In this document: positions 21,304 to 24,039 of the stretch, piece by piece
Position numbering within the stretch: position 1 is the stretch's first letter
How the letters are laid out: every line of letters begins with the position of its first letter
DNA from: a phage
Direction: 5' to 3' (one strand)
DNA length: 64,000 nt
NCBI GenBank assembly: GCA_014913405.1
Contig: GCA_014913405.1_3931.1
Made by a program: the position numbers and the translations under genes
Notes under the pieces: generated by a model
What the model saw: the letters and a program-made list of their open reading frames with translations, nothing else
Told to the model about the DNA's origin: nothing
Database searches by the model: none

Positions 21304-22719
21304 ATGAGCGAATTATTTAAACATGCGCACCTTCATGCAGGTCGAACTGAAAATGGTGCTGTAAACCATACTTCATCAATGTCTGCTCTTGTAGACTTTT
21401 ACAAAGCTGCTGGTTCAAGCCGTAGCAACGTAGAAATCTTACCAGACCTGTTCTACAAAGCTTTGCGTGAGGATGTTGATGTTGCAGTTCGTATTTTGCT
21501 TCATATGCGAGATGTACGAGAAGGTATGGGTGAGCGTAAAGCCTTCAGAACTGTTTTGCTTCAAGCAATTGAAGATAAAGTTTTAGAGCCTACACAGGTT
21601 CTTCGCATTATGGATAAGATTGCAGAACTTGGTCGTTTTGATGACTTCAAAATCTTCGTGGGTACTTGTTTCGAGACAGATGCCTTCAAACATTTAGAAG
21701 CAGCATTACTAGACCCTGCAACAGCAGGTTTGGCGGCTAAGTGGTTACCACGAGTAAAACCACGTCATAAGCAGTTTGTAAAACGTTTCTGCAAGTTTGC
21801 CAACTTGAGTGAGAAAGAGTACCGCACACTGTTGTCTGCACTATCTGATACAGTTGAGCAAAAAATCTCTGCTAATGAGTTTGGTAAGATTGACTACAGT
21901 AAGATTCCTTCACTTGCTGCTGCACGTTACCAAAAACTGTTTAACCGTAAAGATGGAGAGCGTTACAAAGCTTACATCGAGTCCTTATCAAAAGGTGAGA
22001 CTAAGATTAGCGCTGGTGCTGTTTACCCATACGATGTGATTAAATCTGTCAAGCATGGTAATGCAGATGTTGCTAATGAGCAGTGGAAAGCACTACCAAA
22101 CTGGATGGCAGAAGGTGAAAACATCTTGTGTATGTCTGATGTATCAAGTTCAATGTCTTGGGTGAATTTTGGCTCCATTACTGCTCTGGATATTGGTGTA
22201 TCACTTGCCTTGTATGTAGCAGAACGCAATACAGGTTGCTTTAAGAATGAGTTGATGGTTTATTCAACAAACCCTCACTTCATCGAACTGAGTGGTGATT
22301 TACGAAACCGTCATCGTCAGGTGATGCGACACGTTGAATATGGCTCAACTAACTTACAAGCAGCTTTTGACCGCATTCTTGAGACAGGCAAAAGAAACAA
22401 CTTGACTCAGAAAGATATGCCAAGTAAGCTTATCATCTTCTCCGATATGGAGTTTAATCAGGTTGATGGGGCTAACGGTCGTACAAACTTTGAAGCAATT
22501 CAGAGTAAGTACAAAAAAGCTGGATATGAGATGCCACAACTGGTATTCTGGTACTTAGCAAACCGTAATGGTACTTGCGAAGTATCTGTTAAGGATAACG
22601 GTGTAGCAATGGTATCAGGGTTCTCTCCAGCCACTTTAAAAGCTCTGCTTGGTGGTGAGAAGTTTGACCCAATCAGTGTAATGCTCAAAGCAGTAATGAT
22701 TGACCGTTATATCTGGTAA
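21304..22719 (+). CDS. vWA-domain protein with MIDAS-like DxSxS motif; candidate Ro60/TROVE-like or phage vWA protein
   Basis: CMSDVSSSMS motif; helical N-terminal region; immediately upstream of tRNA array. Confidence 0.4.
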   Translation: MSELFKHAHLHAGRTENGAVNHTSSMSALVDFYKAAGSSRSNVEILPDLFYKALREDVDVAVRILLHMRDVREGMGERKAFRTVLLQAIEDKVLEPTQVLRIMDKIAELGRFDDFKIFVGTCFETDAFKHLEAALLDPATAGLAAKWLPRVKPRHKQFVKRFCKFANLSEKEYRTLLSALSDTVEQKISANEFGKIDYSKIPSLAAARYQKLFNRKDGERYKAYIESLSKGETKISAGAVYPYDVIKSVKHGNADVANEQWKALPNWMAEGENILCMSDVSSSMSWVNFGSITALDIGVSLALYVAERNTGCFKNELMVYSTNPHFIELSGDLRNRHRQVMRHVEYGSTNLQAAFDRILETGKRNNLTQKDMPSKLIIFSDMEFNQVDGANGRTNFEAIQSKYKKAGYEMPQLVFWYLANRNGTCEVSVKDNGVAMVSGFSPATLKALLGGEKFDPISVMLKAVMIDRYIW

Positions 22720-22737
22720 AAAGTTTTAAAAAGGGTA

Positions 22738-22766
22738 TTGACAATGTGTTTAATACCCTTTAATAT
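22738..22766 (+). promoter_or_regulatory. Sigma70 promoter for tRNA array (TTGACA-17-TAATAT)
   Basis: Canonical hexamers and spacing. Confidence 0.6.
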
Positions 22767-22883
22767 GTTCTACATAGAAACGAAATGAGAGCTTTTCTAA
22801 GATACTGAAAAATATTTTAAAAAGTTCTTGACAACCACTAAAAAATAATGTTAAAGTGGTTACATAGAGTTTGAAAAGTTTAT

Positions 22884-22957
22884 CTCTGTTTAGCTCAGCT
22901 TGGTAGAGCGTTCCGTTTGGGGCGGTAAGGCCGGAGGTTCAAGTCCTCCAACAGAGA
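22884..22957 (+). tRNA. tRNA-Pro(TGG)
   Basis: Manual cloverleaf; T-loop GGTTCAAGTCC; CCA encoded. Confidence 0.7.
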
Positions 22958-22967
22958 CCAAATTAAT

Positions 22968-23042
22968 GTTCCAGTGGACAAAATGGTAAAGTCACCACTC
23001 TTTCAAAGTGGATATTTGAGGGTTCAAATCCCTTCTGGAACG
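22968..23042 (+). tRNA. tRNA-Glu(TTC)
   Basis: Manual cloverleaf; acceptor GTTCCAG/CTGGAAC. Confidence 0.65.
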
Positions 23043-23051
23043 CCAGTTTTG

Positions 23052-23126
23052 ACAGAAGACCAATTACAGCAAACTTAATCTTATTCATCTGAAGGTAAAT
23101 CGGACAAAGAAGAGATTTGGTCTGGT
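23052..23126 (+). ncRNA. Structured inter-tRNA element E1 (CAGAAGACC ... GGTCTGG ends)
   Basis: Member of a family with conserved ends and compensatory stem changes. Confidence 0.45.
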
Positions 23127-23136
23127 CATTAAGAAT

Positions 23137-23210
23137 TGCGGGTATAGAGAAAGGGCGTCTCACATGTCTCATTAGCATGGTATCGGCAGGTTCGACTCCT
23201 GCACCCGCCT
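23137..23210 (+). tRNA. tRNA-like, CAT anticodon (Met/Ile2?), non-canonical
   Basis: Good T-arm and acceptor; 1-72 mismatch, 6-nt variable loop, U at position 37. Confidence 0.4.
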
Positions 23211-23218
23211 CCAAATTT

Positions 23219-23284
23219 ACAGAAGACCGTTTACAGCAATATTTATTAAATTTTTAGCGGAAAAATTGAAAGATACGGTCTGGT
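23219..23284 (+). ncRNA. Structured inter-tRNA element E2
   Basis: CAGAAGACCGTTTACAGCAA ... ACGGTCTGG. Confidence 0.45.
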
Positions 23285-23296
23285 AATACTAAACAT

Positions 23297-23370
23297 GGTT
23301 AGGAAGCACATAAGGTATGTGCGGTCGCCTGTTAAGCGAATGGCACAGGGTTCGAATCCCTGACTAACCG
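23297..23370 (+). tRNA. tRNA-Asn(GTT)
   Basis: Manual cloverleaf. Confidence 0.65.
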
Positions 23371-23442
23371 CCAAATTTAGGAGAGAAGCGATTGCTCACC
23401 GATTTGTAAGGTGCAAGTCCTTAGCCTGAATAGAAATCAAAT

Positions 23443-23527
23443 GTGTCGTTATCCCGTAGATGGTAGCGGTGGGGACTGTAAATCCCTTGTCATTGAGACT
23501 CGGTAGGTTCGACTCCTACACGGCACA
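23443..23527 (+). tRNA. tRNA-Tyr(GTA), class II with long variable arm
   Basis: Manual fold, 85 nt. Confidence 0.65.
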
Positions 23528-23536
23528 CCAAATAAA

Positions 23537-23611
23537 GGTTATGTAGTTTAATCTGGTTAAAATACTCCCCTGTCACGGGAGATGATGAGGGTTCAAATCC
23601 CTTCATAACCG
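23537..23611 (+). tRNA. tRNA-Asp(GTC)
   Basis: Manual cloverleaf, perfect anticodon stem. Confidence 0.7.
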
Positions 23612-23674
23612 CCAATTTTGAGAGGGCTATTTAGCCCCTCCCTTAAAGAGTTCTTACGAGTATTCTTTAAAGGA

Positions 23675-23750
23675 GCAGAAGACCAAATACAGCAAGCATG
23701 TATGAAATTTCAAACCAATTCAATTTTGAAAATTTAAAACTTGGTCTGGC
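23675..23750 (+). ncRNA. Structured inter-tRNA element E3
   Basis: CAGAAGACCAAATACAGCAA ... TTGGTCTGG. Confidence 0.45.
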
Positions 23751-23761
23751 TCAACAAATTT

Positions 23762-23895
23762 ACAGAAGACCGTTTACAGCAAAACTTAAACAATCTATTT
23801 CTCCGGTAAAGAAAAGGCGAGGGTTCGATTCCTTCACTCGGCAGATGTCGAGTTGGTGTAATGGTAGCACTTAAGATGATAAACAACGGTCTGGT
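23762..23895 (+). ncRNA. Structured element E4 containing tRNA-like T-arm and D-arm-like hairpins
   Basis: Same conserved ends; internal GGTTCGATTCC T-loop; no full tRNA folds. Confidence 0.4.
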
Positions 23896-24039
23896 AATTA
23901 TCTTTGTAGATAAGTTATTAAGCTTACCTGTGAGTATGCGACCACAAAGGGTGAATGGGTAAATTCTAGATTTAAACCCAAAAAGGCACATCGCTACAGA
24001 CCTTAAGCAAGTCTGGGTAGCTTATCTACAAAGATAATT
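23896..24039 (+). repeat. Perfect 19-bp inverted repeat (AATTATCTTTGTAGATAAG) enclosing about 105 nt
   Basis: Arms at 23896-23914 and 24021-24039. Confidence 0.8.

What the first reader, a model, noticed from the sequence alone, without database searches (positions are those of the whole stretch)
21304..23900. vWA-domain protein immediately upstream of the tRNA array: possible Ro60/Y-RNA-like module
The 471-aa product has a MIDAS-like DxSxS motif (CMSDVSSSMS) in its C-terminal half and a helical N-terminal half, the overall architecture of Ro60/Rsr (TROVE + vWA). In bacteria Rsr is typically encoded next to Y RNAs that contain a tRNA-like domain closed by a long stem. Element E4 (23762-23895) carries a T-arm-like hairpin (GAGGGTTCGATTCCTTC), a D-arm-like segment (TGGTGTAATGGTAGCAC) and a closing stem formed by its conserved ends, which fits that description. 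The hypothesis is that this phage encodes an Rsr-like protein plus Y-RNA-like partners.
Basis: inference. Interest (0 to 1): 0.7.

Follow-up and report, generated by a model that had tools for sequence, protein, structure and literature searches.

The report
Phage Ro60-like protein with partner RNAs
This FelixO1-type phage encodes a ring-shaped Ro60-like protein followed by four small structured RNAs (one a rearranged tRNA look-alike) that share a previously undescribed conserved end, a pairing that recurs in hundreds of unrelated phages and resembles a mysterious RNA class of social amoebae.

The parts
21235..21264 (+). sigma-70-like promoter ahead of the ORF (TTGACA-18-TAAAGT)
   Evidence: consensus scan, 10 of 12 matches; not evidence of function
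21304..22719 (+). Ro60-fold protein gene, 471 aa (Pfam DUF2828 + DUF7788); orthologue of Bas63 gp130
21304..22098 (+). N-terminal all-helical domain (about aa 1-265), structurally equivalent to the TROVE/HEAT ring of Ro60; many invariant Arg/Lys (R40, R69, R72, R78, R111, K146, R208)
22111..22719 (+). C-terminal vWA domain with complete MIDAS (D279-x-S281-x-S283 at nt 22138-22152; T349; D381)
   Evidence: Pfam vWA_Ro60 hit in 11 of 45 homologues, VWA_2 in 25 of 45; hhalign to human Ro60 residues 364-471
22738..22857 (+). two tandem sigma-70-like promoters (22738-22766, 22828-22857) between the ORF stop and the first tRNA
   Evidence: consensus only
22884..28095 (+). array of 26 tRNA genes in which E1-E4 are interleaved
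   Evidence: ARAGORN; Rfam
23050..23128 (+). E1, short element (core 23057-23124; UACAGCAA at 23065-23072), 5 nt after tRNA-Glu and 9 nt before tRNA-Met
   Evidence: Rfam Dicty_Class_I 19.7 bits
23217..23286 (+). E2, short element (core 23224-23282; motif 23232-23239), between tRNA-Met and tRNA-Asn
   Evidence: Rfam Dicty_Class_I 20.1 bits
23673..23752 (+). E3, short element (core 23680-23748; motif 23688-23695)
23760..23897 (+). E4, long YrlA-like element: terminal helix 23767-23774 with 23885-23892, then G23893; motif 23775-23782; anticodon-stem-like helix 23785-23789 with 23871-23875; V-like hairpin about 23794-23817; T arm 23819-23835; closed acceptor-like hairpin 23836-23853 (7 bp, loop AGAU); D arm 23855-23871
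   Evidence: Rfam tRNA model partial hit at 23786-23836, 18.8 bits

Best explanation
The ORF encodes a divergent Ro60-type ring protein (helical ring plus vWA/MIDAS domain). E1-E4 are its small non-coding RNA partners, functional counterparts of bacterial Y RNAs. The RNAs are transcribed with the tRNA array from the promoters just after the ORF. Because they sit within a few nucleotides of the flanking tRNAs, ordinary tRNA processing would release them. The protein recognises the module shared by all four: a 7-bp terminal helix that begins with an A-U (or U-A) pair and an invariant G-C pair, a 3' unpaired G, and the single-stranded UACAGCAA that follows the 5' strand. Three RNAs are short, like YrlB or Class I RNAs. 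E4 also carries a tRNA mimic that could recruit tRNA-handling or RNA-decay/repair enzymes, as YrlA and phiLo Yrl RNAs do with PNPase. The complex most likely acts in RNA surveillance or repair during infection and contributes to counter-defence. Shown here: the Ro60 fold, the RNA structures with covariation, and the conserved gene-RNA linkage. Inferred: direct binding, processing, the partner enzymes, and the link between the RNAs and the reported Ppl phenotype.
Against: There is no binding, expression or processing data for any of these RNAs. No TROVE sequence signal was found; hhalign to human Ro60 reaches only 36.7% probability and covers the vWA domain only. E4 does not hit Rfam YrlA at E<=10, and all YrlA and Class I hits are below the gathering scores. 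The terminal module differs from the canonical Ro-binding GNCGAA helix, so the binding mode cannot be transferred from the Ro60-Y RNA structures. I derived the descriptor from these data and chose the 3' partner by complementarity; the controls and independent replication sets mitigate this but do not remove it. 27 of 75 distant loci and a large Clostridia clade lack the descriptor. The preprint attributes the Ppl phenotype to the protein alone.
Confidence: 0.7

Rival explanations
1. The elements are cis-acting operators rather than stable trans-acting RNAs: the protein binds them in its own transcript to autoregulate translation or mRNA stability.
For: In many phages the elements lie in the 5' leader or just after the stop codon (median distance 224 nt). 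In KVP40 the 3' strand contains the start codon, and in L079 and LAh_9 the element abuts the Shine-Dalgarno sequence.
Against: In this window they lie 340-1180 nt past the stop codon, beyond two promoter-like sites, and interleaved one by one between tRNA genes. Phages carry 3-7 tandem copies, some with elaborate tRNA-like cores, which is excessive for an operator. This rival still requires protein-RNA binding and may hold as an additional role in some phages.
Confidence: 0.1
2. The RNAs are independent of the protein: processing punctuation of tRNA operons, decoy substrates for host tRNA nucleases, or sRNAs. They merely share an 'RNA metabolism' genomic island with the gene.
For: In several phages both lie in tRNA arrays. 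E4 is a tRNA mimic. No binding data exist.
Against: The elements accompany the gene where no tRNA genes exist (L152), are absent from tRNA arrays that flank canonical Ro60 genes, and lie within tens to hundreds of nucleotides of the gene, always on its strand, in phages of four phyla.
Confidence: 0.1
3. The protein acts through protein-protein contacts of its vWA/MIDAS domain (for example, directly inhibiting the Ppl defence protein), and its Ro60-like shape does not mean that it binds RNA.
For: MIDAS sites usually bind protein ligands. The preprint models gp130 as an inhibitor of Ppl.
Against: The N-terminal ring superposes on Ro60 and carries many invariant basic residues. An RNA module that covaries with the protein type is hard to explain otherwise. 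The two roles are not mutually exclusive.
Confidence: 0.07
4. E4 is a circularly permuted tRNA gene that matures into a functional tRNA, and E1-E3 are decayed copies.
For: E4 has a perfect 7-bp acceptor stem, canonical T and D loops and a discriminator-like A. M. smegmatis YrlA is cleaved by RNase P and receives CCA.
Against: There is no anticodon loop; the anticodon-stem-like helix opens into the conserved module. E1-E3 and most relatives have no tRNA-like parts, yet they conserve the module with covariation. To my knowledge bacteria lack the splicing machinery used for permuted tRNAs.
Confidence: 0.03

Closest known systems
Bacterial Ro60 (Rsr) with YrlA/YrlB Y RNAs (Salmonella rsr-yrlBA-rtcBA; Deinococcus Rsr-Yrn1-PNPase 'RYPER')
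   Same: Ring plus vWA/MIDAS fold. Same-strand small RNA genes next to the protein gene. One RNA with a permuted tRNA-like domain (V, T, closed acceptor-like, D) plus shorter RNAs without it. RNA-ligase genes nearby in some loci.
   Different: The protein is a separate sequence family (DUF2828/DUF7788; no TROVE hit). The RNA ends carry AG-N6-UACAGCAA...CUG instead of the GNCGAA-containing bulged helix. There are up to seven tandem copies, and here they are embedded in a tRNA array.
Thermus phage phiLo Ro60 with Yrl1/Yrl2 (PDB 9KOP, 9L5Y)
   Different: phiLo Ro60 is annotated as a TROVE protein and its RNAs carry the canonical CGAA motif. Binding was shown there; it is not shown here.
Dictyostelid Class I RNAs (Rfam RF01414)
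   Same: About 60 nt. An invariant 5' G pairs with the C of a conserved 3' CUG. A short terminal stem is conserved in structure but not sequence. UACAGCAA lies directly 3' of the 5' stem strand and is single-stranded. The interior is variable. RF01414 is the only non-tRNA Rfam family that repeatedly hits the short phage elements: 12 full-length hits of 12.8-29.6 bits, 7 of them checked against descriptor coordinates and matching exactly. One generalised descriptor captures 29 of 37 curated Class I RNAs.
   Different: All hits are below the gathering score of 41.5. The G lies one nucleotide further from the motif in the amoeba (8 nt against 7). The amoeba RNAs have a eukaryotic DUSE promoter and a multigene family. 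The only named binding protein is an RRM protein, Rnp1A. Whether dictyostelids encode a DUF2828 protein could not be tested here.
Bas63 gp130 (PhageMaP preprint, 10.1101/2024.10.10.617714) and actinophage 'Ro-like RNA binding protein' annotations
   Same: bas63_0130 is the orthologue of this ORF. It was reported to be structurally Ro60-like and a counter to Ppl defence, with speculation that some tRNA genes are Y RNAs. Mycobacteriophage cluster relatives (about 33% identity) are annotated as Ro-like.
   Different: No RNA partner was identified in that work. The elements lie between the annotated tRNA genes and are unannotated, or overlain by small hypothetical ORFs.

Membership tests
Ro60/Rsr (TROVE + vWA) | TROVE domain detectable by sequence (Pfam PF05731) | tested here: not met
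   No TROVE hit at E<=1 for the protein or at E<=10 for any of 45 homologues. PDB phmmer and hmmsearch find nothing. hhalign to human Ro60 aligns the vWA domain only.
Ro60/Rsr (TROVE + vWA) | Helical-repeat ring joined to a vWA domain (three-dimensional fold) | tested here: met
Ro60/Rsr (TROVE + vWA) | MIDAS motif DxSxS...T...D in the vWA domain | tested here: met
   D279, S281, S283, T349 and D381 are invariant in 45 sequences. They align with Ro60 DVSASM...TD...TDNE.
Ro60/Rsr (TROVE + vWA) | Binds Y RNA through a conserved helix, and binds misfolded RNA in the central hole | not testable with these tools
   Needs RIP/EMSA or a structure.
YrlA Y RNA (Rfam RF02553; Chen et al. 2014) | Score at or above the Rfam gathering threshold (69 bits) | tested here: not met
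   E4 has no hit at E<=10. Related long elements score 39.2 (L094), 40.1 and 32.5 (KP13-26) and 21.4 (Rumpelstiltskin). YrlA candidates beside canonical phage Ro60 genes also score only 24-43 bits.
YrlA Y RNA (Rfam RF02553; Chen et al. 2014) | tRNA-like domain in the order V, T arm, closed acceptor-like stem-loop, D arm, closed by the paired 5' and 3' ends | tested here: met
   E4 MFE and arm parsing. The same layout occurs in at least 7 other phages with different stem sequences.
YrlA Y RNA (Rfam RF02553; Chen et al. 2014) | GNCGAAN0-1G motif near the 5' end (presumed Rsr contact) | tested here: not met
   E1-E4 begin AGACCnnnUACAGCAA. The canonical consensus is cggCgaAUGCu....
YrlA Y RNA (Rfam RF02553; Chen et al. 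2014) | Encoded within about 4 kb of the Ro60 gene, on the same strand | tested here: met
   E1-E4 start 331-1041 nt (outer coordinates) after the stop codon, all on the + strand.
Dictyostelid Class I RNA (Rfam RF01414; Kjellin et al. 2021) | Score at or above the Rfam gathering threshold (41.5 bits) | tested here: not met
   E1 19.7, E2 20.1, E4 12.8. The best phage elements score 29.6 and 28.0.
Dictyostelid Class I RNA (Rfam RF01414; Kjellin et al. 2021) | 5' G paired to the C of a 3' CUG; 6-bp terminal stem variable in sequence; conserved motif containing UACAGCAA directly after the 5' strand; about 60 nt | tested here: met
   G-C 44/44; the 3' end is C[U/A]G (selected for by the descriptor); 7-bp stem with covariation; modal length 57-66 nt. 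Compared with the curated Class I sequences. The spacing differs by 1 nt.
Dictyostelid Class I RNA (Rfam RF01414; Kjellin et al. 2021) | DUSE promoter about 60 nt upstream; restricted to Dictyostelia | tested here: not met
   These are phage genes in bacterial-type operons. The published family is defined as dictyostelid-specific.
Pfam DUF2828 / DUF7788 | Both domains above the gathering scores | tested here: met
   DUF7788 148.8 bits (cut-off 27.1) and DUF2828 106.4 bits (cut-off 29); all 45 homologues match.

The most novel reading that the evidence does not exclude
The short phage RNAs and the Class I RNAs of dictyostelid social amoebae are one RNA class, defined by the G-C-closed terminal stem, the 3' UG and the UACAGCAA motif, and the cognate ligand of that class is a Ro60-fold protein of the DUF2828/DUF7788 family. 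Class I RNAs (discovered in 2004, abundant, developmentally regulated, mechanism unknown, reported as unique to Dictyostelia) would then be the 'Y RNAs' of a second, unrecognised branch of Ro ribonucleoproteins spanning phages, giant viruses of protists and eukaryotes. The same family in plants and giant viruses would be expected to have similar RNA partners.
Probability: 0.3. Interest if true: 0.9.

Novelty: new variant of a known kind. Interest (0 to 1): 0.8.

Why it matters
Ro60-Y RNA particles are a conserved RNA-surveillance machine and a major human autoantigen, but bacterial and phage Y RNAs have been found only next to proteins annotated as TROVE. This finding points to a second, sequence-unrecognisable branch of Ro-fold proteins with its own RNA family and a different recognition module. 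That branch is present in at least 710 cultured phage genomes, including tractable models (FelixO1, Bas63, KVP40, Listeria P100-like phages, mycobacteriophage cluster L). It gives the Ppl counter-defence phenotype of Bas63 gp130 concrete RNA candidates to test. It explains unannotated gaps, and probably spurious small ORFs, inside phage tRNA arrays. It also shows that the RNA module covaries with the protein type, which is a natural specificity experiment. If the resemblance to Dictyostelium Class I RNAs reflects a shared protein partner, a twenty-year-old question about those RNAs becomes directly testable.

Tried and rejected
- **Sequence-only homology to Ro60:** Pfam TROVE, PDB phmmer and hmmsearch, and the C-terminal domain alone found nothing. 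hhalign gave a weak match to the vWA domain only.
- **Rfam at gathering thresholds:** only tRNAs in the window.
- **Exact-pattern scan of viral contigs with the Felix-specific 19-mer:** multi-hit loci were all Felixounaviruses. Single hits numbered about what my rough estimate gives for chance with 16 specified bases, so I did not use them.
- **MAFFT alignment of full short elements and of tRNA-like cores:** the 3' strands and acceptor-like hairpins fell out of register. I replaced these with equal-length mini-elements and explicit arm parsing. I did not build a covariance model for this reason.
- **Literature search for the motif string:** returned only primers. Searches linking Dictyostelium with TROVE or Ro60 gave nothing relevant.
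- **Papers not held:** Avesson 2011, Aspegren 2004 and two Wolin reviews. The identity of the other three Class I-associated proteins therefore remains unknown to me.
- **Testing whether dictyostelids encode DUF2828:** the AFDB libraries were unavailable. The proteome fragments in the Kjellin supplement are truncated, and the only motif hit was an unrelated vWA protein. No supplements are held for the D. firmibasis paper.
- **Explanations rejected:** terminators, repeats or mobile-element ends are rejected because of strand specificity, covariation and linkage to one gene family across phyla. Degenerate tRNA genes are rejected because most elements have no tRNA-like part.
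Full report
**What is there.** The window is a Felixounavirus, 97-98% identical to FelixO1, VpaE1 and Bas63 over 21304-24050. ORF 21304-22719 (+) encodes 471 aa. Pfam assigns it DUF2828 and DUF7788, not TROVE or vWA. PHROGs calls the family 'RNA-binding protein'. Twenty-six tRNA genes follow from 22884 to 28095. CMSDVSSSMS is residues 276-285. A complete MIDAS set (D279, S281, S283, T349, D381) is invariant in 45 homologues down to 43% identity, as are many basic residues of the N-terminal half.

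**The protein has the Ro60 fold.** An AlphaFold2 model built on that alignment is confident (pLDDT 89.7, pTM 0.89), with an all-helical N-terminal half and an alpha/beta C-terminal half.
- Foldseek against the PDB returns Ro60/Rsr entries as its ten best matches, each aligned over about 500-550 columns. Isolated vWA domains come next, four orders of magnitude weaker.
- In the viral structure library the nearest folds are DUF2828/DUF7788 proteins of other phages and of many giant viruses of protists. Annotated TROVE/Ro-like phage proteins follow.
- By sequence the link is faint. No TROVE hit appears in any of 45 homologues, 11 of 45 weakly hit Pfam 'Ro60 vWA domain', and hhalign to human Ro60 (sequence verified against PDB 9nen) aligns only the MIDAS region at 36.7% probability.
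- The protein therefore works like Ro60 by fold but is not a TROVE-family member by sequence criteria.

**Prior art on the protein.** bas63_0130 is the orthologue. The PhageMaP preprint reports that gp130 is structurally similar to Ro60 and counters the Ppl defence system. [quoted passage not shown] Mycobacteriophage relatives at about 33% identity are already annotated 'Ro-like RNA binding protein'. The protein half of the hypothesis is therefore not new.

**The RNAs in the window.** AGAAGACCnnnTACAGCAA occurs four times, all on the + strand within the tRNA array.
- All four elements fold with the same closing structure: a Felix-specific 4-bp outer stem, an AGA/G internal loop, then a 7-8-bp helix AGACCnn/nnGGUCU. 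Single-stranded UACAGCAA follows the 5' strand, and there are compensatory differences between copies.
- E1 and E2 each fill a slot between two tRNA genes with only 4-9 nt to spare. E3 and E4 are tandem.
- E4 contains, in order: an anticodon-stem-like helix, a V-like hairpin, a canonical T arm, a closed 7-bp acceptor-like hairpin with no gap before it, a one-nucleotide linker, and a D arm with a GG loop. That is a circularly permuted tRNA opened where the anticodon loop would be, which is the architecture published for YrlA.
- Rfam's YrlA model does not hit E4. The canonical YrlA ends (cggCgaAUGCu.../...ucGccg) are unlike the E module.

**The gene-RNA pairing is conserved far beyond this phage.**
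- In 75 viral contigs whose protein is 38-47% identical, exact TACAGCAA is five-fold enriched on the gene strand (98 against 21, with about 14 expected) and sits next to the gene.
- The consensus is [A/U]G-N5-6-UACAGCAA-variable-complement-C[U/A]-G. This descriptor is met by 48 of 78 gene-strand motif occurrences, 0 of 20 on the opposite strand and 1.3% of random positions.
- With one motif mismatch allowed there are 92 hits against 1 on the opposite strand and 2 in shuffled sequence. 48 of 75 loci carry an element, at a median of 224 nt from the gene, about equally often upstream and downstream. UUCAGCAA is a common variant.
- Across 44 distinct elements the helix is 7 bp. The outer pair is A-U in 36 and U-A in 8, with none unpaired. 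The second pair is G-C in all 44. Inner pairs show 3-5 pair types. The covariation score is 0.82, against at most 0.17 with the partner slid. The 3' partner was chosen by complementarity, so percent-paired is partly built in.
- The unchanged descriptor replicates in bacterial genomes and MAGs (18 against 1 and 1). A somewhat laxer version replicates in cultured phages of four phyla: Rumpelstiltskin has 3 copies right after its 'Ro-like' gene, Listeria P200 has 3, Klebsiella KP13-26 has 5, Aeromonas LAh_9 has 6-7, Campylobacter CP81 has 1, and KVP40 has 1 miniature copy that includes the start codon.
- In L152 the element follows the stop codon by 17 nt in a locus without tRNA genes. In L149 and KP13-26 the Felix layout (gene plus elements inside a tRNA array) recurs.

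**Specificity control.** Canonical TROVE-type Ro60 occurs in 357 other phage records. In five such loci the laxer descriptor is at background: 1 hit on the gene strand (inside a tmRNA gene) against 1 opposite. In six DUF2828-type cultured loci it gives 21 against 1. The canonical loci instead give YrlA-model hits of 24-43 bits, all below the gathering score. That is the same range as the long elements beside DUF2828 genes (39.2, 40.1 and 32.5 bits). The tRNA-like core is therefore shared between the two systems, while the terminal module covaries with the protein type. This is the pattern expected if the module is the protein's recognition site.

**Functional context.** Neighbours include T4-type RNA ligase 1 and a metallophosphoesterase (L152), an RtcB-type ligase (Listeria P200), Band-7/SPFH proteins (LAh_9 and L152; also beside canonical Ro60 in phage Trina) and tRNA arrays for both protein types. 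This parallels the bacterial rsr-yrlBA-rtcBA operon, a comparison I draw from established knowledge of that operon. The phiLo precedent shows a phage Ro60 binding adjacent Yrl RNAs and host PNPase.

**Most likely mechanism.** The RNAs are co-transcribed with the tRNAs (here) or with the gene (elsewhere). They are released by tRNA-type processing and bound through the terminal module. The tRNA mimic of E4 serves as a handle for tRNA or RNA-decay/repair enzymes, and the complex supports RNA surveillance or repair and counter-defence. Binding, processing and partners are all inferred.

**The unexpected resemblance.** The only non-tRNA Rfam family that repeatedly aligns to the short elements is Dictyostelium Class I RNA. 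There are 12 full-length hits of 12.8-29.6 bits (gathering score 41.5). For the seven hits in cultured phages, the boundaries are identical to those from my descriptor.
- The published definition is an invariant 5' G paired to the C of a conserved 3' CUG(U), a 6-bp stem conserved in structure but not sequence, the motif CCUUACAGCAA right after the 5' strand, a variable interior and a length of about 60 nt. It fits the phage elements.
- Curated sequences read G-UUGAC-CU-UACAGCAA...GUCAAC-UG.
- A generalised descriptor captures 29 of 37 of them (0 of 1850 shuffles). The one systematic difference is an extra nucleotide between the G and the motif.
- Class I RNAs are reported as unique to Dictyostelia, and their mechanism is unknown.
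- DUF2828 proteins occur in giant viruses of protists. I could not determine whether dictyostelids encode one. This remains a lead, not a finding.

**Verdict.** The protein part is already known. The RNA family, its defining module, its breadth and its specificity for the DUF2828-type protein appear to be new, making this a new variant of the Ro60-Y RNA kind.

Noticed in passing
window 23896-24039 (+): Between E4 and tRNA-Lys lies a very stable structure (MFE -49.2 kcal/mol, z -6.2, 0 of 200 shuffles) closed by a 24-bp duplex that looks like an RNase III substrate. Its interior holds a miniature hairpin AGAC-C-UUAAGCAA-GUCUGG that echoes the E module. There is no Rfam hit. Bas63 annotates a small minus-strand ORF here.
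   Followed up: partly
window 24745-24822 (+): A tRNA-like sequence with anticodon loop CUCCAAA (a possible tRNA-Trp, CCA) was missed by ARAGORN and scores only 23 bits on the tRNA-Sec model. The acceptor stem has an A-C mismatch.
   Followed up: no
window 24219-24523 (+): Weak hits to the permuted-tmRNA and tmRNA models (29.2 and 15.7 bits) lie in a 245-nt gap of the tRNA array that contains the best promoter-like site of the region (24293-24321, 11 of 12 matches).
   Followed up: no
L234 (Vibrio phage KVP40) 2966-3007: A miniature module GACAUUU-UACAGCAA-...-AUGUCAG has a 3' strand that contains the start codon of the DUF2828 gene and a loop that holds the Shine-Dalgarno sequence. This suggests translational autoregulation by the protein. 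L079:1764-1806 and the last LAh_9 element abut the ribosome-binding site in the same way.
   Followed up: partly
L109 5734-5834: One element carries a tRNA-like core in normal order (D arm, anticodon arm, T arm) with the UUCAGCAA terminal module in place of the acceptor stem. This is a second way of fusing a tRNA body to the module.
   Followed up: no
L075:5284, L076:3141, L093:5742: A different conserved insert, CCUUUCUGGAGGGGAAAGCAAAAACUCGCC, recurs inside elements of three unrelated contigs. It may be a third subclass of interior domain.
   Followed up: no
short elements in many loci (e.g. L134:5834-5895, L124:12880-12934): The interiors of short elements often repeat AGCAA or UACAGCAA one to three times and end in an A-rich tract before the 3' strand. 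Dictyostelium Class I interiors also repeat UACAG and end A-rich then C-rich.
   Followed up: no
L236 (Listeria phage P200) 1426-1977: A ROOL RNA match (86 bits, gathering score 99.1) lies among tRNAs about 1 kb upstream of the DUF2828 gene and its three elements. An RtcB-type RNA ligase lies 1.3 kb downstream.
   Followed up: no
L242 (Gordonia phage GMA2) 4728-5505: Directly after a canonical Ro60 gene come a tmRNA (94.6 bits), a YrlA candidate (43.1 bits) and a Pistol ribozyme (56.8 bits, above its gathering score of 34.5), followed by a tRNA array.
   Followed up: no
L094 11696-11922: A group I intron (71.5 bits, above its gathering score) lies in the same contig as a three-element array and a DUF2828 gene.
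   Followed up: no
annotation of public records (Bas63 bas63_0137/0138; CP81 ORF140; LAh_9 gp043 start): Small hypothetical ORFs or extended CDS starts are annotated over the RNA elements in several GenBank records. These are probably artefacts of unrecognised ncRNA genes.
   Followed up: partly
window 18344-19225 (-): A 293-aa ORF has two near-identical Ig-like repeats of about 85 aa (QQPTNQ...GATGYQWKK...GSYTCVVTGAGGSVTSN), probably a decoration or fibre-associated protein. It is unrelated to the finding.
   Followed up: no
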